This document shows positions 133-5,152 of a DNA stretch of 5,152 nt, piece after piece. The notes under the pieces are model-generated. The model worked only from the letters and a program-made list of their open reading frames with translations, searched no databases and was not told where the DNA came from. Position numbers and translations under genes: made by a program. Within the stretch, counting starts at the first letter, position 1. The number at the start of each line of letters is the position of its first letter. The stretch lies in assembly GCF_055900595.2 (NCBI RefSeq), contig NZ_JBVWEU010000009.1, one strand, 5' to 3'. Source of the DNA: a plasmid.

Positions 133-1227
133 ATGGCAAGCTACCATTGCACAGTTAAAACTGGAGCAAAAGGCGTAGCCTTAAAACATGCTGATTACAT
201 TTCCAGATCCGGCGAATATAAAAACTATAAATCGCGGGAGGATCTGGAATTTTCTTCATCCGGTAACATGCCATCATGGGCGAAGAAAAATCCCGCAGAA
301 CTGTGGAAAGCTGCTGATGAATTTGAACGAAAAAACGGGACGGCATACCGTGAAATTGAGATCGCATTACCGCGAGAACTGACACGTGAACAACGGATAG
401 AGCTTGTTGAAGATTTCGTGCAAAAGGAACTTGGTGATCGCCATGCCTATCAGTACGCGATCCACAATCCACCAGGTGCAATTGACGGGAAGGAACAGCC
501 ACACGCGCATATCATGTTTTGCGAACGGATTAATGATGGTATTGAACGCGATCCGCAGCAGTTTTTTAAACGTGCCAACAGCAAATCACCAGAGCGGGGA
601 GGCGCAAAAAAGGCACGCTTTGGCGAGACACAACAAGAGCGAAAATCAGCCCTGGTTGCGCTACGCTCTCACTGGGCTGATGTGCAGAATGAACACCTTG
701 CGCGACACGGCCACCAGTCGCGCGTTGATCATCGTTCGCTGAAAGAACAGGGTATCAAGCGTACGCCGGAGGTGCATCTTGGTCCCGTTCGTGTTGCTGT
801 TATGAACGCTGATCAGGTTTGTGCAATTCTGGCATGGAGAAATGCGGAACGGGAGAAGCTGGAGGCCGAGAAGGAACGGGACAGCATCATTGACCTTAAA
901 ACGACCTTGAAGGAAGCGTTAGCTGAACGGGATAACATGCCACCAACCCTGGATGAGCTTGGGGCAGAATTGAAAGCGTTTGTTGAAAGCTCGTTTGATG
1001 AACTCAATGAGGTAATGCAGCTTAATTCATTGATTGACGGTGCGCTGGACACAATGATGAAGCAATTCCAGGTGGAAGAGGAGCGGAAGCTGCAACAGGA
1101 ACGACTAATTCAGGCTGCGCGAGATGAAGCCGAAAAACAAAGAGAGCTGGAGAGGGAAAGAGTGCGCCGGCGTGCGTATTCTTCACCAGCACCATCACGT
1201 TCACGCGATTATGGTATGAGCCGTTAA
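133..1227 (+). CDS. mobA: mobilization relaxase MobA (MobA/MobL family, MOBQ)
   Basis: 364-aa ORF, ATG at 133 with GGAGG at 116-120. The N-terminus MASYHCTVKTGAKGVALKHADYISRSGEY has the conserved Tyr-containing motif of MobA/MobL relaxases (compare RSF1010 MobA), and a downstream His motif (QPHAHIMF) fits the metal-binding histidine cluster. The C-terminal half is charged and coiled-coil-like (EKLEAEKER, QRELERERVRRR). It sits directly downstream of the oriT-like site. G+C is near half, typical of an enterobacterial backbone. Confidence 0.88.
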   Translation: MASYHCTVKTGAKGVALKHADYISRSGEYKNYKSREDLEFSSSGNMPSWAKKNPAELWKAADEFERKNGTAYREIEIALPRELTREQRIELVEDFVQKELGDRHAYQYAIHNPPGAIDGKEQPHAHIMFCERINDGIERDPQQFFKRANSKSPERGGAKKARFGETQQERKSALVALRSHWADVQNEHLARHGHQSRVDHRSLKEQGIKRTPEVHLGPVRVAVMNADQVCAILAWRNAEREKLEAEKERDSIIDLKTTLKEALAERDNMPPTLDELGAELKAFVESSFDELNEVMQLNSLIDGALDTMMKQFQVEEERKLQQERLIQAARDEAEKQRELERERVRRRAYSSPAPSRSRDYGMSR

Positions 1228-1248
1228 GCACTGGAGGTTTTTTATTTT

Positions 1249-1965
1249 ATGCAATTGGATGAACATTCAAGAAAAATTGCTGCCCTTGTTGCGTATAATG
1301 AAAAGCAAATAAAAGAAATAAACAGGATAATTACTCTGCTTAATGAAAGAGTGAATGATTTAAATACCTTTACAGATACTCTTGAACGTGAAGGTAAAGT
1401 TGTATCTGGAATTTCTTATTCCTTGAGAGATAGTGTGTCTCATGTTGATTTTTATCTTAATAAAGGAATGGAAGAAGTATCCTGTAAATTACAGAAATCT
1501 GTCTCAGACACACTAACATCATTACTCCGTGAAAAATTATCTTTCACACTTAATGATGTAAGGCAAGAGTGGACTGATTTTGAAGAGCAAACAAGTAAAG
1601 AGATAAAGGAATCATTAAAGCAGACGACCAGAGATGCTGAAGTTGCGACAGGTATAATTAGAAAAATAATGGAAAAGTATACAGTAACAAGGATAGTCGA
1701 AAAGGTAATTGTGTTACTTGTGTTATTTTTATTACTAATGATAGCACCTGGTTTCTATGCTGAATATCTCAAAATGAATATCGGTTCTCTAATGGAAGAA
1801 CAGAAAAAACATGAATCTATGTTAAAAGAGTGGAAGGAAAAAGCACCATTGGCAGAGTTCTCTAAGTGTGGAGAGTATAGGGAAGCATGTGTGTTAGTTG
1901 ATGATAAAAGCGGATATTATTATGATGAACAAACTCCAAATAAAAAATATGCCATACTGAAATAG
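1249..1965 (+). CDS. hypothetical bitopic membrane protein (N-terminal coiled-coil domain, one transmembrane helix, small Cys-containing C-terminal domain); AT-rich cargo gene
   Basis: 238-aa ORF. ATG at 1249 is preceded by GGAGG at 1233-1237 and starts 21 nt after the mobA stop codon (TAA 1225-1227), with no obvious promoter in between. The N-terminal ~145 aa are rich in K/E with heptad-like spacing (EKQIKEINRIITLLNERVNDLN). One strongly hydrophobic segment (IVEKVIVLLVLFLLLMIAPGFYAEYL) follows, then a ~70-aa tail with two Cys (SKCGEYREAC) and a YYYDE motif. Codon usage is visibly AT-rich, about one-third G+C by eye, unlike mobA and rep. I recognise no family. Confidence 0.6.
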   Translation: MQLDEHSRKIAALVAYNEKQIKEINRIITLLNERVNDLNTFTDTLEREGKVVSGISYSLRDSVSHVDFYLNKGMEEVSCKLQKSVSDTLTSLLREKLSFTLNDVRQEWTDFEEQTSKEIKESLKQTTRDAEVATGIIRKIMEKYTVTRIVEKVIVLLVLFLLLMIAPGFYAEYLKMNIGSLMEEQKKHESMLKEWKEKAPLAEFSKCGEYREACVLVDDKSGYYYDEQTPNKKYAILK

Positions 1966-2120
1966 TGTTAAGTAACTCATTCCGCCTTATGACTAAGGCT
2001 GCATGAGTATAAAAACTAAAAATAAATGCCCGTACCTAAAAAATGGAACTACATATACTTATGTACCTTGAGAATGACGGAGTTAATTTATCCTTTGTTG
2101 TCAAATTTTTGACCCAAACA

Positions 2121-2160
2121 GGGGCCGCTTGGTAGGGTATCTGAACTCCAATCGGTCCCC
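2121..2160 (-). terminator. candidate intrinsic terminator / GC-rich imperfect hairpin downstream of the minus-strand cargo gene
   Basis: On the minus strand, just after the stop codon (complement of 2172-2174), the sequence GGGGACCGATTGG-(15 nt)-CCAAGCGGCCCC forms an imperfect ~11-bp stem (one bulge, one mismatch) followed by UGUUUGGGUC. It is a GC-rich island in an otherwise AT-rich intergenic region between two convergent genes. The T-tract is weak, so this is only a candidate. Confidence 0.3.
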
Positions 2161-2171
2161 TCATAATGCCT

Positions 2172-2969
2172 TTATGTATTGAATTCTAATACAGGGTCGA
2201 ATTGAAACATGTCATTAAAATAACATAGTGCTGGATTACTAAATGTAATTGGTTCTGCTTCGGTATTTAGGTAATCCAACCATTCATAATAATCTTTTTT
2301 AAATTGCGTGTATGTTTCTTTTGTCATTGGTTTGAATTGATAACCAAAAGTTGTATGAAATCTATATGTGTCATGGTTTTTATGTTTCACTCCTGTTATT
2401 TCAGCAACGGAATTTCTAAAGTTGATTAGTATTTCTTTATCTGAGTTGCTTGCAGGAATTAAAGGTATAATAAAGGCTGGTTGTTTATTATCGTCCCACT
2501 CTGGAGGTAGCGATGGTGTAGATTTTAGATCTACCTTCATTGTAACAGGTTTTTCAAATCCTATTTGTTTATTTTTAAGTGTATTTGCAATTAACTTTGT
2601 CGCTTCCTCCATGCTTATATTCGTGGGGGTGTTATAAGGCCAAGGATTTTTTCTATCGCCACTAATTAAAGAAATGATAGTCATGTGATAAGAGTTTGGA
2701 GGTAATAACACAATGCAATCACCAAAATCTCGTTGAATTCGAACCTGAATATTAAGCATTGCTTTAAATAAATTGCTGTCTTTATCTGTATGGCAGATTA
2801 CGGAACATCCTTTATATTGTGCAACCTTTCCATTGCGATAAAATTTTGCGCCCTTATCAAGACCGTTGTTTTGTGCTATTTCGCATCGATTATTTTCAGC
2901 AAAAACAGTATTAGATGTTATTGCTGCTGTTACTAATGCGGAAGATTTTATAAATGTTCTTCTGTCCAT
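2172..2969 (-). CDS. Tat-signal (twin-arginine) exported protein with 2H phosphoesterase (LigT-like) motifs; AT-rich cargo gene
   Basis: The minus-strand ORF track starts at 3029, but the preferred start is the ATG at 2969 (complement of 2967-2969), preceded by AAGGAA 7 nt upstream. It gives MDRRTFIKSSALVTAAITSNTVFA-ENN: a twin-arginine motif (RRxFIK), a hydrophobic h-region and an A-x-A-like cleavage site (VFA), i.e. a Tat signal peptide. The mature part carries two H-x-T-x motifs flanked by hydrophobics, about 110 aa apart: LLPPNSYHMTIISL and YRFHTTFGYQF. This is the signature of the 2H phosphoesterase superfamily, and the first motif resembles the PPENLH-hydrophobic-T-L segment I recall in LigT. 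G+C is about one-third by eye. Confidence 0.6.
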   Translation of the reverse strand: MDRRTFIKSSALVTAAITSNTVFAENNRCEIAQNNGLDKGAKFYRNGKVAQYKGCSVICHTDKDSNLFKAMLNIQVRIQRDFGDCIVLLPPNSYHMTIISLISGDRKNPWPYNTPTNISMEEATKLIANTLKNKQIGFEKPVTMKVDLKSTPSLPPEWDDNKQPAFIIPLIPASNSDKEILINFRNSVAEITGVKHKNHDTYRFHTTFGYQFKPMTKETYTQFKKDYYEWLDYLNTEAEPITFSNPALCYFNDMFQFDPVLEFNT

Positions 2970-3014
2970 AACAGATTCCTTATTAGTGAATGTGAGTTTC
3001 TTCTTCATTAGAAG

Positions 3015-3042
3015 AATGTAAAAAAACATAAATAAAAGTCAA
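3015..3042 (-). promoter_or_regulatory. candidate sigma70 promoter for the Tat/2H-like gene
   Basis: On the minus strand: TTGACT (complement of 3037-3042), a 16-nt AT-rich spacer, then TACATT (complement of 3015-3020). This lies about 45 nt upstream of the ATG at 2969. The alternative in-frame ATGs at 3029 and 3008 would fall inside or abut this promoter and lack a Shine-Dalgarno sequence. Confidence 0.3.
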
Positions 3043-3237
3043 ACGGTAAAAAACGCCTAGGGGCTTTCACGAAACAAACGGATTTGTACGCTGAACTTTG
3101 ACGTCACCCCGTTTGGGGGAAACTCATCAGAACGCTATATCAAATTCCCGCAAAGGACTTCTCATCCAGGGGAGAAAATTTGTCATTTTGACCCGTTCGC
3201 CGTTCTGTACGGTCGAAACCGATCGCGCATCGCTTTC

Positions 3238-3253
3238 GTGCATAGTTATGCAA
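3238..3253. promoter_or_regulatory. candidate ARG-box-like palindrome (accessory sequence of the cer-like site)
   Basis: gTGCATagttATGCAa is an inverted repeat (TGCAT / ATGCA, 4-bp AT-rich centre) resembling the ARG box half-sites TGAAT / ATTCA. It lies about 100-115 bp upstream of the XerC/XerD core, the distance at which ArgR binds in cer. Confidence 0.3.
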
Positions 3254-3353
3254 CGCGCTAAAAACGATTCTGACGCATTTTTTATGTTTACCCTGGTGTT
3301 TCCTTGTCTTTTTACGTTTTTTACGTCAGAAAGCGACTGAGGGCGTTTTAAGG

Positions 3354-3381
3354 GGTACGTACAAGAGGAGTTATGGTAAAT
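3354..3381 (+). other. cer-like XerC/XerD multimer resolution site (core)
   Basis: GGTACGTACAA-GAGGAG-TTATGGTAAAT. The left arm differs by one base from the ColE1 cer XerC arm as I recall it (GGTGCGTACAA), and the right arm is identical to the cer XerD arm (TTATGGTAAAT). The central region is 6 bp (cer has 8; dif and psi have 6). About 250 bp of non-coding sequence upstream (3100-3353) fits the accessory region. Confidence 0.6.
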
Positions 3382-3402
3382 GGATCGGGTTTGCGGGAAG
3401 GA

Positions 3403-3431
3403 TCGACAGGATTTGCCGTTGGGTGTAGTGT
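3403..3431 (+). promoter_or_regulatory. candidate rep promoter
   Basis: TCGACA (3403-3408), 17-bp spacer, TAGTGT (3426-3431). This would start a roughly 100-nt leader before the rep ATG at 3538, in line with the long antisense-controlled leader of ColE2-type rep mRNAs. Confidence 0.3.
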
Positions 3432-3439
3432 AAGCGACT

Positions 3440-3555
3440 GAAAAACAAACGCCCCTGAAATCATGTCCAGATCCGGCAAGATTCAACATGAAATACAGGG
3501 GCGAGGTCGGTCGATAACCTGGAAGGAATCGTAACACATGAGCGCCGCGCTTCAA
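3440..3555 (-). ncRNA. candidate antisense RNA (ColE2 RNAI-like copy-number control RNA) complementary to the rep leader
   Basis: A long interrupted hairpin in the rep leader: gcccctg (3451-3457) pairs with caggggc (3496-3502), and the inner arms tcatgt (3461-3466) pair with acatga (3486-3491). On the minus strand the stem is followed directly by GUUUGUUUUUC (complement of about 3440-3450), the shape of an intrinsic terminator for a minus-strand transcript. ColE2-type replicons are known to control Rep translation with a roughly 115-nt antisense RNA against the leader. The 5' end and promoter are not resolved, so the boundaries are approximate. Confidence 0.4.
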
Positions 3556-4473
3556 TACTTCGACGAAAATTTACCCCACCGTCCCTATCACACGGATGAT
3601 CTCGCTTTTGGTCTTCGCATCTCCGGCAAAGGGCGTGCGCTTCTTGCGCGGTACATACAGCAGAACCAGCCTCATGCGCAGTTCTGGCTGGTTTTTGACG
3701 TTGACCGCGAGGGGGCAGCGATTGACTGGAGTGACCGGAACGCTCCCGCGCCGAACATCACCGTAAAAAATCCTGTGAACGGTCATGCTCACCTGCTCTA
3801 CGCGCTCAATATCGCCGTGAGAACCGCGCCGGACAGCTCGGTTAAGGCGCTGAAATACGCCGCTGCGATTGAACGTTCGCTGTGTGAGAAACTTTGTGCT
3901 GATGTGAACTACAGCGGACTGATTTGCAAAAATCCGTTCCACCTGGAATGGCAGGTGATGGAGTGGCGCGAGGAAGCCTATACCCTCGATGAACTGGCAG
4001 ATTATCTCGATTTGAGCGCCTCAGCGCGTCGTAGCATCGATAAACATTACGGGATGGGGCGAAACTGCCACCTGTTCGAAATGACGCGCAAATGGGCTTA
4101 CAGGGCGATTCGTCAGGGCTGGCCAGCATTCTCACAGTGGCTTGATGCCGTGATTCAGCGTGTCGAAATGTACAACGCATCGCTTCCCGTTCCGCTTTCT
4201 CCGGCTGAATGTCGGGCTATTGGCAGGAGCATTGCGAAATACACGCACAGGAACTTCACGCCGGAAACTTTCGCACAGTATGTGGCTGATACGCACACAC
4301 CAGAAATACAGGCCAAGAGAGGCCGGAAAGGTGGTATCGCTAAAGGCGAAGCCTACGATGACAAGCGTTTCATGGCGCTATGTATGCTGGATAATGGATA
4401 TTCTCAGAAAGCTATTGCGGCGATGCTGAATGTACATCGTAATACGATCCGTAATTGGGCAATGCACAAATAG
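3538..4473 (+). CDS. rep: ColE2-type replication initiator Rep (plasmid-specific primase-like initiator)
   Basis: 311-aa ORF, ATG at 3538 with AAGGA at 3523-3527. The N-terminus MSAALQYFDENLPHRPYHTDDLAFGLRISGKGRALLARYIQQNQPHAQFWLVFDVDREGAAIDWSDRNAPAPNITVKNP closely matches what I recall of ColE2-P9 Rep (MSAVLQRFREKLPHKPY...QNQPHA...DWSDRN.PAPNITVKNP). The C-terminus has a helix-turn-helix-like segment (YSQKAIAAMLNVHRNTIRNW). The origin motif follows directly after the stop codon, as in ColE2. G+C is near or above half. Confidence 0.9.
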   Translation: MSAALQYFDENLPHRPYHTDDLAFGLRISGKGRALLARYIQQNQPHAQFWLVFDVDREGAAIDWSDRNAPAPNITVKNPVNGHAHLLYALNIAVRTAPDSSVKALKYAAAIERSLCEKLCADVNYSGLICKNPFHLEWQVMEWREEAYTLDELADYLDLSASARRSIDKHYGMGRNCHLFEMTRKWAYRAIRQGWPAFSQWLDAVIQRVEMYNASLPVPLSPAECRAIGRSIAKYTHRNFTPETFAQYVADTHTPEIQAKRGRKGGIAKGEAYDDKRFMALCMLDNGYSQKAIAAMLNVHRNTIRNWAMHK

Positions 4474-4515
4474 CCTATATCAGATAACAGCGCCTTTTCG
4501 GCGTCTTTTTGAGCA
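4474..4515 (+). other. ori: ColE2-type origin of replication (Rep binding and priming site)
   Basis: cctatATCAGATAACAGCGCCttttcGGCGTCTTTTTGAGCAg starts right after the rep stop codon (TAG 4471-4473). It matches the conserved ColE2/ColE3 ori core as I recall it (CCTTATCAGATAACAGCGCCCTTTTGGCGTCTTTTTGAGCA) with a few substitutions. Confidence 0.7.
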
Positions 4516-4569
4516 GCGGGCTTTCCGGCGGTTTTCTCCTTTCAGCCCAGCAATGGTGCGGCTTACCGT

Positions 4570-4640
4570 ATGATTGAGGTGGTCGTGCTCGCCGCAGTCT
4601 CATGACCGAGCGTAGCGAGCGAATGAGCGAGGAAGCACCA
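4570..4640. other. candidate single-strand initiation / primosome assembly site (ColE1 pas-like homology)
   Basis: GCTCGCCGCAGtctcatGACCGAGCGtAGCGAGcgaaTGAGCGAGGAAGC (about 4587-4636) is strikingly similar to the pBR322/ColE1 segment GCTCGCCGCAGccgaacGACCGAGCGcAGCGAGtcagTGAGCGAGGAAGC. In ColE1 this lies downstream of ori in the region of the PriA-dependent primosome assembly (n-prime) sites. Here it sits about 100 bp downstream of the ColE2-type ori, where lagging-strand priming would be needed. Confidence 0.4.
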
Positions 4641-4666
4641 GGGAACCGGAACGTGAACGGAGGCTC

Positions 4667-5113
4667 TTACGCACTGTCTTTGGTTAGTAGCTTCTTCCCG
4701 CGTCTTTCCCATTCCTGCCATTTTGGATGGTTGCGCGGTAGCTCTGCGATTCCTGCGAGTGCGCCTACCAGTTCGGCAGCACTACACTTTGGTTTTCCGG
4801 TTTTGCTGTCCACCAGTCCTGCCACAATCATGAGGCCTGCGGCCTTGTAGAGTTCATGATCCCGCGCTTTTCGTTCCGCCCTTGCGGCTGCCTTCCGTTC
4901 TGCCGCTATGATTGCCGTTACCCTGGCTTTTGCTGCGGCTGCTTTCTCTGCGGTTTTTTCTGCCCGTATCAGTGCGGATAACGTTTTTTCATCCGTCGTT
5001 GTTCGGTTTTTTTTCTCTGCCAGTAACACAAGTAATCTCTGCTGCTCTGACGGTGATTTCAGTCCGTTGATGTAGGCAATTTTTGCACTTAACCACTCTT
5101 CACGATTTGTCAT
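4667..5113 (-). CDS. mobC: MobC-like mobilization accessory protein (divergent from mobA across oriT if the molecule is circular)
   Basis: 148-aa minus-strand ORF. ATG is the complement of 5111-5113, with GAGGT 5 nt upstream. The protein is Ala/Lys/Arg/Glu-rich and helical (EKTAEKAAAAKARVTAIIAAERKAAARAERKARDHELYKAAGLMIVAGL, ELVGALAGIAELPRNHP), like the small oriT-binding accessory proteins found beside MOBQ relaxases. Its start is 39 bp from the window end; joining the end to the start puts it divergent from mobA with oriT between them, as mobC/oriT/mobA is arranged in RSF1010-type plasmids. The family call rests on position and composition, not on a recognised motif. Confidence 0.5.
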   Translation of the reverse strand: MTNREEWLSAKIAYINGLKSPSEQQRLLVLLAEKKNRTTTDEKTLSALIRAEKTAEKAAAAKARVTAIIAAERKAAARAERKARDHELYKAAGLMIVAGLVDSKTGKPKCSAAELVGALAGIAELPRNHPKWQEWERRGKKLLTKDSA

Positions 5114-5152
5114 TCTTACCTCTGCACTTTTGCCGTTAATGTGAGTTGTTAT

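What the first reader, a model, noticed from the sequence alone, without database searches (positions are those of the whole stretch)
1966..2171. Structured intergenic region between the convergent cargo genes
The 206-bp gap contains a 6-bp-stem hairpin (gcctta-tgac-taaggc, 1994-2009), a perfect 14-bp palindrome (gtcaaa-tt-tttgac, 2100-2113) and a GC-rich imperfect long hairpin (2121-2160), all in an otherwise AT-rich stretch. These may be transcription terminators for both genes. The palindrome could also be a protein-binding site, or the region could encode a small RNA.
Basis: seen in the sequence. Interest (0 to 1): 0.2.

Follow-up and report, generated by a model that had tools for sequence, protein, structure and literature searches.

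The report
Recombination scar between two plasmid genes
The 206-bp gap is an ordinary patchwork left when one cargo gene replaced another on a small ColE2-type plasmid: a conserved stem-loop, the dead tail of the lost gene, the join itself, and the new gene's own stem-loop.

Summary
The window is a complete 5152-bp ColE2-like (Col156, MOBQ) mobilizable plasmid. The gap 1966-2171 is real and holds two stem-loops that are unusually stable for this plasmid. SL2 lies at 2121-2160. The "perfect 14-bp palindrome" is really 6-bp arms around a non-palindromic TT, and is no better than chance.

Comparison with relatives shows the gap is a mosaic:
- **Backbone, 1966-2104.** This part is shared with plasmids that carry a LysE-family gene convergent with the 238-aa gene.
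- **SL1.** It sits between the two stop codons in those relatives.
- **LysE remnant, 2019-2104.** This is the decayed last ~30 codons of that LysE gene.
- **Break in homology.** Similarity stops at 2104, inside the "palindrome".
- **Incoming segment, 2105-~3141/3171.** A foreign segment carrying a DUF1868 gene and SL2 replaces the rest of LysE.

The palindrome is therefore a by-product of the join and is absent from relatives. SL2 is a plausible though non-canonical terminator for DUF1868. SL1 has no U-tract on either strand. There is no Rfam, tRNA or promoter signal. A marginal resemblance between the left join and the replicon-boundary element remains unexplained.

The parts
1249..1965 (+). 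238-aa hypothetical membrane-anchored protein gene (left convergent gene)
   Evidence: ORF. No Pfam family above cutoff. Homologs of 80% identity or more occur only on this plasmid group, and in the relatives they are followed by SL1 and LysE.
1975..2008 (.). SL1: conserved 34-nt stem-loop (ACTCAT-TCC-GCCTTA / TGAC / TAAGGC-TGC-ATGAGT), backbone-derived. Probably a transcript 3'-end structure.
   Evidence: z about -4.8; top 0.1% of windows. Present in all LysE-type relatives between the two stop codons, and invariant among L001, L006 and L026-L028. The window differs at 1981 and 1985. No U-tract on either strand.
2019..2104 (-). Decayed 3' remnant (about the last 30 codons) of a LysE-family translocator gene. 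A 16-nt deletion removes the stop codon and a 4-nt deletion shifts the frame.
   Evidence: The DNA aligns with the LysE 3' ends of L001, L004-L006 and L026-L028. The translated remnant matches LysE residues 160-179, E = 7e-13.
2100..2113 (.). Interrupted inverted repeat GTCAAA-TT-TTTGAC that straddles the homology breakpoint (2104/2105). A by-product of the join.
   Evidence: Homology to relatives ends at 2104; relatives read cgtcaagctaatagc. Not above chance.
2105..3171 (.). Replacement segment carrying the DUF1868 gene. It lacks homology to the LysE-type relative L001 across 2105-3171. Colicin-type ColE2 relatives regain homology from about 3142.
   Evidence: Only the coding part (2179-2987) has a match elsewhere, at 76% identity to DUF1868 genes on large E. 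coli plasmids.
2121..2160 (-). SL2: G+C-rich imperfect stem-loop that came in with the DUF1868 segment. Probably a non-canonical terminator or 3' stabiliser for DUF1868.
   Evidence: It starts 11 nt after the DUF1868 stop and is followed on the - strand by TGTTTGGGT. The 72%-identical homolog in L002 has its own unrelated G+C-rich hairpin 13 nt after its stop. The SL2 pattern was not found in the GTDB representative genomes or the JGI metagenomes.
2172..2969 (-). DUF1868 / 2H-phosphodiesterase-family gene with a Tat-like signal (right convergent gene). The mechanical ORF extends to 3029.
   Evidence: Pfam PF08975, E = 7.6e-21; TAT_signal is weak. A 265-aa product is called on all public copies.
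2036..2164 (-). Chimeric 42-aa ORF: an N-terminus read through SL2, fused in frame to the LysE tail. Probably meaningless.
   Evidence: No Pfam hit.
3180..3194 (+). TTGTCATTTTGACCC, within the conserved left edge of the replicon (GAGAAARYTTG....TTTTGACCNGTTCGC). It shares TTGTCA and TTTTGACCC with the left join at 2095-2115.
   Evidence: Marginal significance (E = 0.11; window-pair p about 0.01, post hoc).

Best explanation
The gap is a recombination scar on a small ColE2-like (Col156 / MOBQ4-2) mobilizable plasmid, not a designed regulatory region.

The ancestor carried the 238-aa gene and a LysE-family translocator gene in convergent orientation, 57 nt apart, with one conserved stem-loop (SL1) between their stop codons. 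A segment of about 1.04-1.07 kb, carrying a DUF1868 (2H-phosphodiesterase-family, Tat-signal) gene with its own upstream region and its own G+C-rich 3' stem-loop (SL2), then replaced all of LysE except its last ~30 codons.

The left join was illegitimate. It lies inside LysE coding sequence at ...GTCAA|ATTTTTGACCC.... The right join lies at or within the conserved left edge of the replicon, upstream of the cer-like site and rep.

The gap therefore consists of SL1, the decaying LysE tail, the join (which by accident reads as a 6+2+6 inverted repeat), and SL2.

Functionally (inferred, not shown), SL1 and SL2 most likely form 3'-end structures on the two convergent mRNAs. SL2 would be a weak or non-canonical intrinsic terminator or 3' stabiliser for DUF1868. 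SL1 would be a U-tract-less 3' hairpin for the 238-aa gene, formerly shared with LysE. The LysE remnant and the inverted repeat would have no function.
For: Shown:
- Homology to 32 LysE-type plasmids runs from the 238-aa gene through SL1 and stops at window 2104. It resumes at 3172.
- The aligned stretch 2019-2104 corresponds to the LysE 3' end, with 16-nt and 4-nt deletions. Its translation matches LysE residues 160-179, E = 7e-13.
- Relatives read cgtcaagctaatagc where the window has GTCAAATTTTTGAC.
- Within 2105-3171, only the DUF1868 coding part has matches elsewhere, at 76% identity.
- SL1 is invariant in five relatives and highly stable: z about -4.8, top 0.1% of windows.
- SL2 is the 3rd most stable 44-nt window. 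It lies 11 nt past the DUF1868 stop and is followed by UGUUUGGGU.
- A 72%-identical DUF1868 homolog carries an analogous but unrelated G+C hairpin 13 nt past its stop.
- The plasmid is common and clonal. The exact protein is indexed in 140 blocks of the collection, and the gap is identical in 10 of 10 loci read.
- Exchange of segments is the described mode of evolution of ColE2-related replicons (Hiraga et al. 1994, from my own knowledge; the family is described in PMC6856555).
Against: - No transcript data, so terminator or stabiliser activity is inferred from position and stability only.
- The consensus terminator scan calls nothing in the gap.
- SL1 lacks a U-tract in both directions. SL2 has a long imperfect stem with a 10-nt loop and only 4 U in its first 6 tail bases.
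- The donor of the DUF1868 segment was not found, so the exact breakpoint and mechanism cannot be fixed. It could lie at 2104 or near 2090: there are 3 substitutions in the last ~12 nt of the remnant against 3 in the preceding 72.
- There is no sequence variation within the lineage, so covariation cannot be tested.
- The left join shares TTGTCA..TTTTGACCC with the replicon-edge element, which a purely random join does not predict.
Confidence: 0.78

Rival explanations
1. One reading: the gap is a purpose-built structured region with three elements, namely two terminators, one for each convergent gene, plus a palindromic protein-binding site.
For: Both stem-loops sit within 9-11 nt of a stop codon and are among the most stable local structures of the plasmid.
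Against: The region is a mosaic of unrelated origins containing a gene remnant. The palindrome is absent from relatives, is created by the join, and is not above chance. SL1 has no U-tract, and the terminator scan finds nothing.
Confidence: 0.1
2. The join sequence is a recombination site. TTGTCA(AAT)TTTTGACCC at 2095-2115 would be a second copy of the conserved replicon-edge element TTGTCATTTTGACCC at 3180-3194. Cargo in ColE2-like plasmids would then be exchanged by recombination between such copies, either site-specific or favoured by short homology.
For: A 9-nt exact direct repeat, TTTTGACCC, lies at both ends of the replaced segment, preceded in both cases by TTGTCA. For window pairs, p is about 0.008-0.016. 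A 13/16 inverted match links 2108-2123 with 3107-3122, p about 0.006-0.01. Homology between plasmids with different cargo repeatedly starts at this replicon-edge element.
Against: BLAST E is only 0.11 for each match in a 91 x 181 nt comparison, and all the tests are post hoc. In 10 other plasmids the element occurs once only, never at the far cargo boundary. In most plasmids it is not an inverted repeat (GCTGTTTTGACC). The left part (GTCAA) is LysE coding sequence shared with relatives. No recombinase is encoded on the plasmid. A target-site-duplication model fails because the right copy sits in uninterrupted backbone.
Confidence: 0.07
3. The gap encodes a small regulatory RNA or an antisense RNA.
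For: The sequence is stably structured overall: z = -2.6 on + and -2.2 on - for the whole 206 nt.
Against: There is no Rfam family and no promoter-like site in the gap beyond chance. Half of the region is a decaying coding remnant. The structure is fully accounted for by SL1 and SL2.
Confidence: 0.03
4. A Xer (cer/dif-like) site at about 2156-2183 (CCCCTCATAA-TGCCT-TTATGTATTGA) mediated the cargo exchange, in the manner of Acinetobacter pdif modules.
For: The inner bases of both arms (CATAA / TTATGT) match Xer consensus. The plasmid has a genuine cer-like site at 3354-3381.
Against: The spacer is 5 nt, whereas functional sites have 6-8. Only 6 of 11 bases match per arm (read from the sequence). 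Neither site coincides with a homology breakpoint: 2104/2105 and 3142-3172 against 2156-2183 and 3354-3381. The candidate overlaps the DUF1868 stop codon.
Confidence: 0.02

Closest known systems
Mosaic replicons and cargo regions of ColE2-related (Col156, MOBQ4-2) plasmids (Hiraga, Sugiyama & Itoh 1994; Garcillan-Barcia et al. 2019, PMC6856555)
   Same: The backbone matches: MobA/MobL relaxase, TraD-like MobC, a Replicase/PriCT Rep, a stem-loop region in the rep 5'UTR, and a cer-like site. Homologous and non-homologous blocks alternate with sharp borders.
   Different: This particular swap of LysE for DUF1868, and its scar, have not been described to my knowledge; 'DUF1868' returns no paper. 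The left join lies inside a gene, not at a module border.
Intrinsic (Rho-independent) terminators, and bidirectional terminators between convergent genes
   Same: Stable stem-loops lie 9-11 nt downstream of the stop codons of convergent genes. SL2 has a G+C-rich stem base followed by a partly U-rich tail.
   Different: SL1 has A-rich sequence after it on + and no U run on -, the reverse of the A-tract / stem / T-tract layout of bidirectional terminators. SL2 has a 40-nt imperfect stem with a 10-nt loop and a short, interrupted U tract. Neither passes the consensus scan.
LysE-family translocator genes (PF01810) of sister plasmids such as pSCU-106-7 and pSTEC2018_607-j
   Same: Window 2019-2104 is homologous to their last ~30 codons, and the flanking SL1 and 238-aa gene are shared.
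   Different: Only about 15% of the gene remains. It is frameshifted and lacks its stop codon, so it is a pseudogene fragment.
Xer-site-bounded modules (cer-mediated exchange; pdif modules of Acinetobacter plasmids)
   Same: A small plasmid with exchangeable cargo and a real cer-like site.
   Different: The breakpoints do not fall at Xer sites, and the candidate left site has a 5-nt spacer and weak arms.

Membership tests
Intrinsic terminator | Stable G+C-rich stem-loop shortly downstream of a stop codon | tested here: met
   SL1 is -14.4/-15.8 kcal/mol and lies 9 nt after the 238-aa gene's stop. SL2 is about -19 kcal/mol, 62.5% GC, and lies 11 nt after the DUF1868 stop.
Intrinsic terminator | Run of U (T) immediately 3' of the stem on the transcribed strand | tested here: not met
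   This applies to SL1. Its tail is AUAAAAACU on + and UACUUAACA on -. The consensus scan found no site in 1966-2171.
Intrinsic terminator | U run 3' of the stem, tested for SL2 on the DUF1868 strand | tested here: inconclusive
   The tail is UGUUUGGGUC. Its tail score of 2.29 is comparable to the 2.21 of the rep-3' terminator-like site. However, the loop is 10 nt and the site was not called by the scan.
Intrinsic terminator | Mapped transcript 3' ends or measured termination | not testable with these tools
   No expression data are available.
LysE-family gene (remnant) | Sequence homology to LysE genes at DNA and protein level | tested here: met
   BLASTP E = 7e-13 to LysE residues 160-179.
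LysE-family gene (remnant) | Intact full-length reading frame (about 190 aa) | tested here: not met
   Only about 86 nt remain, with 4-nt and 16-nt deletions and the stop codon lost. It is a pseudogene fragment.
Conserved protein-binding palindrome (operator) | Symmetric site conserved in related plasmids | tested here: not met
   The centre TT is not symmetric. Relatives have cgtcaagctaatagc at this position. The stem is at chance level.
Known small RNA or cis-regulatory RNA family (Rfam 15) | Covariance-model match at or near the gathering score | tested here: not met
   The best hit is RnaG at 20.5 bits against a gathering score of 153. There is no tRNA or tmRNA.
Xer (cer/dif) recombination site | Two 11-bp arms around a 6-8-bp centre, coinciding with module borders | tested here: not met
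   The candidate at 2156-2183 has a 5-nt centre and 6 of 11 matches per arm (read from the sequence). The breakpoints are at 2104/2105 and 3142-3172. The true cer-like site is at 3354-3381.
Transposon or IS insertion | Terminal inverted repeats flanked by a target-site duplication, plus a transposase | tested here: not met
   The right TTTTGACCC copy lies in uninterrupted backbone. The 13/16 inverted match is not at the segment termini. No transposase is present.

The most novel reading that the evidence does not exclude
The left join is not random. TTGTCA(AAT)TTTTGACCC at 2095-2115 would be a diverged second copy of the conserved replicon-edge element upstream of cer and rep. That would mark a so-far undescribed hotspot or site at which ColE2-like plasmids capture and swap cargo segments.
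Probability: 0.06. Interest if true: 0.45.

Novelty: new member of a known kind. Interest (0 to 1): 0.13.

Why it matters
It matters little beyond annotation. It shows that the "palindrome" is a junction artefact and that part of the "intergenic" DNA is a LysE pseudogene fragment. It also dates the DUF1868 plasmid as a derivative of the LysE-carrying lineage. This is a clean example of how cargo is replaced on small ColE2-type mobilizable plasmids: one illegitimate join inside a gene and one join at the replicon edge. Only if the resemblance between the two joins proved to be general would it point to a cargo-capture hotspot.

Tried and rejected
- **Known RNA families.** Rfam on the whole window and on 1930-2210 at E up to 10 found nothing credible in the gap. 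ARAGORN found nothing.
- **Consensus scans.** The promoter and terminator scan found no site in the gap, and the counts were at chance level.
- **Source of the DUF1868 segment or SL2.** The following gave no match to the flanks or to SL2: PLSDB distant BLAST, E. coli complete genomes, the protein word-index search, contexts of the 54% homolog, whose contigs end about 20-50 nt after the gene, and an SL2 stem pattern in the GTDB representative genomes and the JGI metagenomes.
- **Covariation in SL1.** All relatives share one sequence and the window differs at two left-arm positions, so no test is possible.
- **Other origins for SL2 or the join.** An integron attC was rejected because there is no RYYYAAC/GTTRRRY core. 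A Tn3-type 38-bp inverted repeat, hix or res sites, and a target-site duplication were also considered from the sequence and rejected.
- **Xer-site model.** Rejected on spacer length and on breakpoint positions.
- **Terminator scoring.** My re-implementation of the d'Aubenton-Carafa terminator score is not calibrated, since even the control scores negative. I used only its tail term, and only comparatively.
- **Literature.** Hiraga 1994 and Yagura 2006 could not be read. 'DUF1868' returns no paper. The pSCU plasmid paper says nothing about this cargo.

Full report
**What the window is.** The 5152 bases are a complete small circular plasmid. Public assemblies of the same sequence overlap their own ends (Logan contigs of 5182 = 5152 + 30; L008 and L009), and the window maps onto them at 99.9-100%.

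It encodes the following:
- a MobA/MobL relaxase (133-1227, +);
- a 238-aa hypothetical protein with one hydrophobic helix (1249-1965, +);
- a DUF1868 / 2H-phosphodiesterase-family protein with a Tat-like signal (2172-2969, -);
- a ColE2-type Rep (Replicase + PriCT; 3538-4473, +);
- a TraD-like MobC (4667-5113, -).

PLSDB types its relatives as Col156 replicon, MOBQ relaxase. This is the MOBQ4-2 / ColE2-like group described in PMC6856555.

**Checking the observation.** The 206-bp gap between the two convergent stop codons is real.

The small hairpin gcctta-tgac-taaggc is at 1984-1999, ten bases left of the coordinates given. It is the upper part of a 34-nt stem-loop at 1975-2008, which I call SL1. 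SL1 folds at -14.4 kcal/mol on the + strand and -15.8 on the - strand. Its z-scores are -4.75 and -4.85, and no shuffle out of 200 folds as well. It is the 4th most stable 36-nt window on either strand of the plasmid, despite lying in 33%-GC DNA.

The "perfect 14-bp palindrome" at 2100-2113 is GTCAAA-TT-TTTGAC. The arms are complementary but the centre is not symmetric. It folds at only -2.5 to -3.7 kcal/mol, z = -1.0. Several other 6-bp inverted repeats occur within 350 bp, so it is not more than chance gives.

The G+C-rich hairpin at 2121-2160 (SL2) is real. It is 62.5% GC against about 33% in both flanking genes. At -19.2 kcal/mol it is the 3rd most stable 44-nt window of the plasmid. Against local composition-preserving shuffles, z is only -1.5 to -1.9.

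**What the region really is.** A distant BLAST of 1940-2200 against 72,556 plasmids found 34 records. In 32 of them the match covers window 1940-2104. In the other two it covers only 1989-2104. None extends past 2104. The features annotated under these matches are "hypothetical protein" (the 238-aa gene) and "LysE family translocator".

Whole-plasmid comparison with the closest relative, pSCU-106-7 (L001), gives homology at 1-2104 (97.3%), 3172-4336 (94.4%) and 4450-5152 (97.4%). Window 2105-3171 replaces about 700 bp that in L001 hold most of the LysE gene.

In the relatives the 238-aa gene and the 190-aa LysE gene are convergent and 57 nt apart. SL1 sits between the two stop codons.

In the window, 2019-2104 aligns with the last ~30 LysE codons. 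It carries a 16-nt deletion that removes the stop codon and a 4-nt frameshifting deletion. Its translation matches LysE residues 160-179 with E = 7e-13. About 40% of the "intergenic region" is therefore a decaying gene fragment.

The mechanical 42-aa ORF at 2036-2164 (-) is a chimera: it reads through SL2 and continues in frame into that LysE tail.

**The palindrome is the join.** Relatives read ...cccttatcGT(C/T)AAgctaatagc..., which is LysE coding sequence. The window reads ...cctttgttGTCAAatttttgaccc....

The left arm of the inverted repeat is therefore LysE-derived, and the right arm belongs to the incoming DNA. The repeat did not exist before the rearrangement and is absent from every related plasmid. 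Within the DUF1868 plasmid lineage the whole gap is 100% identical in 10 of 10 loci, but that reflects clonality rather than constraint.

**The incoming segment.** Of 2105-3171, only the DUF1868 coding part (2179-2987) matches anything else. It is 76% identical to DUF1868 genes on 69-148-kb E. coli plasmids.

The flanks, including SL2, match nothing in any of the following:
- PLSDB;
- 5,426 complete E. coli genomes;
- the GTDB representative genomes;
- the JGI metagenomes.

The protein search found only 72% and 54% relatives. The donor is therefore unknown.

On the right, LysE-type plasmids regain homology at 3172 and colicin-type plasmids at about 3142. An alignment of 11 plasmids with different cargo shows that conservation begins at GAGAAARYTTG....TTTTGACCNGTTCGC. 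This is the left edge of the conserved replicon, about 180 nt upstream of a cer-like Xer site that I located at 3354-3381.

**Function of the two stem-loops (inferred).** SL2 begins 11 nt after the DUF1868 stop codon. On that strand it has a GGGG...CCCC base followed by UGUUUGGGU. Its tail score (2.29) equals that of the only terminator-like site the scan called next to a gene end, at the rep 3' end (2.21). However, its stem is long and imperfect, its loop is 10 nt, and the scan did not call it.

The 72%-identical homolog in L002 has an unrelated 10-bp G+C-rich hairpin 13 nt after its stop, and that hairpin also lacks a clean U run. A 3' stem-loop is thus a recurring companion of these genes. 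I rate SL2 as a plausible weak or non-canonical terminator, or an mRNA 3' stabiliser.

SL1 starts 9 nt after the stop of the 238-aa gene, and in relatives it ends 15 nt before the LysE stop. It is invariant among five relatives whose flanking coding sequences differ. It is followed by AUAAAAAC on + and UACUUAAC on -, the opposite of a bidirectional terminator layout.

The relatives' version (G1981, T1985) folds better on + (-18.4 kcal/mol, using a G-U pair) than on - (-14.3). This hints weakly that the + transcript, the 238-aa mRNA, is the relevant one. SL1 is best described as a conserved 3'-end hairpin whose termination activity is unproven.

**What remains unexplained.** The left join (2095-2115, TTGTCAAATTTTTGACCC) shares TTGTCA and TTTTGACCC with the replicon-edge element at 3180-3194 (TTGTCATTTTGACCC). 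In addition, 2108-2123 has a 13/16 inverted match with 3107-3122.

Random window pairs from the plasmid reach these values with p of about 0.008-0.016 and 0.006-0.01. Against that, BLAST gives E = 0.11 for each match, and all the tests are post hoc.

In ten other plasmids the element occurs once only, and in most of them it is not an inverted repeat. A target-site-duplication model fails because the right copy lies in uninterrupted backbone. I therefore treat the resemblance as probably coincidental, or as short homology that favoured the join. I assign about 6% to a real cargo-capture hotspot.

The remnant carries 3 substitutions in its last ~12 nt against 3 in the preceding 72. The true breakpoint could therefore lie near 2090 rather than at 2104.

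**Comparison with known systems and verdict.**
- **Membership as a canonical intrinsic terminator.** Not met for SL1, which has no U tract. Inconclusive for SL2.
- **LysE remnant.** Homology is met; an intact gene is not.
- **Other classes.** An operator palindrome, an Rfam RNA, a Xer site and a transposon insertion were each tested and not met.
- **Overall pattern.** Blocks of homology with sharp borders are the known way ColE2-related plasmids evolve.

The finding is a real set of sequence features with an ordinary explanation: a recombination scar plus two gene-3' stem-loops. It is a new instance of a known kind and of low interest.

Noticed in passing
window 3354-3381: A cer-like XerC/XerD site, GGTACGTACAA-GAGGAG-TTATGGTAAAT. 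The XerD arm is perfect and the XerC arm has one mismatch to cer. It lies upstream of rep, about 180 nt inside the conserved replicon edge.
   Followed up: partly
window 3449-3571: A sub-threshold Rfam hit to PK-repBA (33.9 bits, E = 9e-5, gathering score 45) over a long stem-loop just upstream of the rep start codon. This is probably the antisense-RNA (RNAI) target region of the ColE2-type replicon.
   Followed up: no
window 2036-2164 (-): A chimeric 42-aa ORF that starts 8 nt after the DUF1868 stop, reads through SL2, and ends with the LysE tail ...KDKLTPSFSRYISICSSIF. An AAGG sequence lies a few bases upstream of its ATG. It is probably not expressed.
   Followed up: partly
window 3171-3200 and the equivalent position in L001, L003, L005, L006, L020-L025: GAGAAARYTTG....TTTTGACCNGTTCGC marks a recurrent, sharp start of conservation between plasmids with different cargo (LysE, colicin operon, oxidoreductase/ArsR, none). 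Its function is unknown, and it has no good sigma-70 -10 partner.
   Followed up: partly
L004 (NZ_CP100506.1) about 1935-2000: A rearranged derivative plasmid. Fragments of rep and mobA are joined to the 238-aa gene's last bases, and a 35-nt deletion ends in the SL1 loop (...tgccAT|GACtaagg). This shows microhomology-type deletions in this plasmid group.
   Followed up: partly
L007 (GCA_024996025.1 contig, 11.7 kb): Window 404-4775 is embedded at 99.98% identity in a larger contig that also holds an IS91-family transposase, a Rep_3 replicon and a 719-aa MobA. This is a cointegrate or rearranged form of the plasmid.
   Followed up: no
window 133-1227 and 855-1248: MobA here is 364 aa, against 516 aa in other Col156 plasmids. 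Homology to L020 stops at window 854, so the relaxase C-terminal part also belongs to a different block.
   Followed up: no
window 4337-4449: The 3' end of rep has no homology to the otherwise closest plasmid L001. This is consistent with the known variable Rep C-terminus / origin-specificity segment of ColE2-related plasmids (from my own knowledge).
   Followed up: no
window 1249-1965: The 238-aa protein has no family assignment; there is only a sub-threshold Syntaxin_2 hit. Its homologs (80% identity or more) were found only on this plasmid group and, in the relatives examined, always with SL1 and LysE downstream. The gene is AT-rich (33% GC) against 49-52% GC in the backbone.
   Followed up: partly
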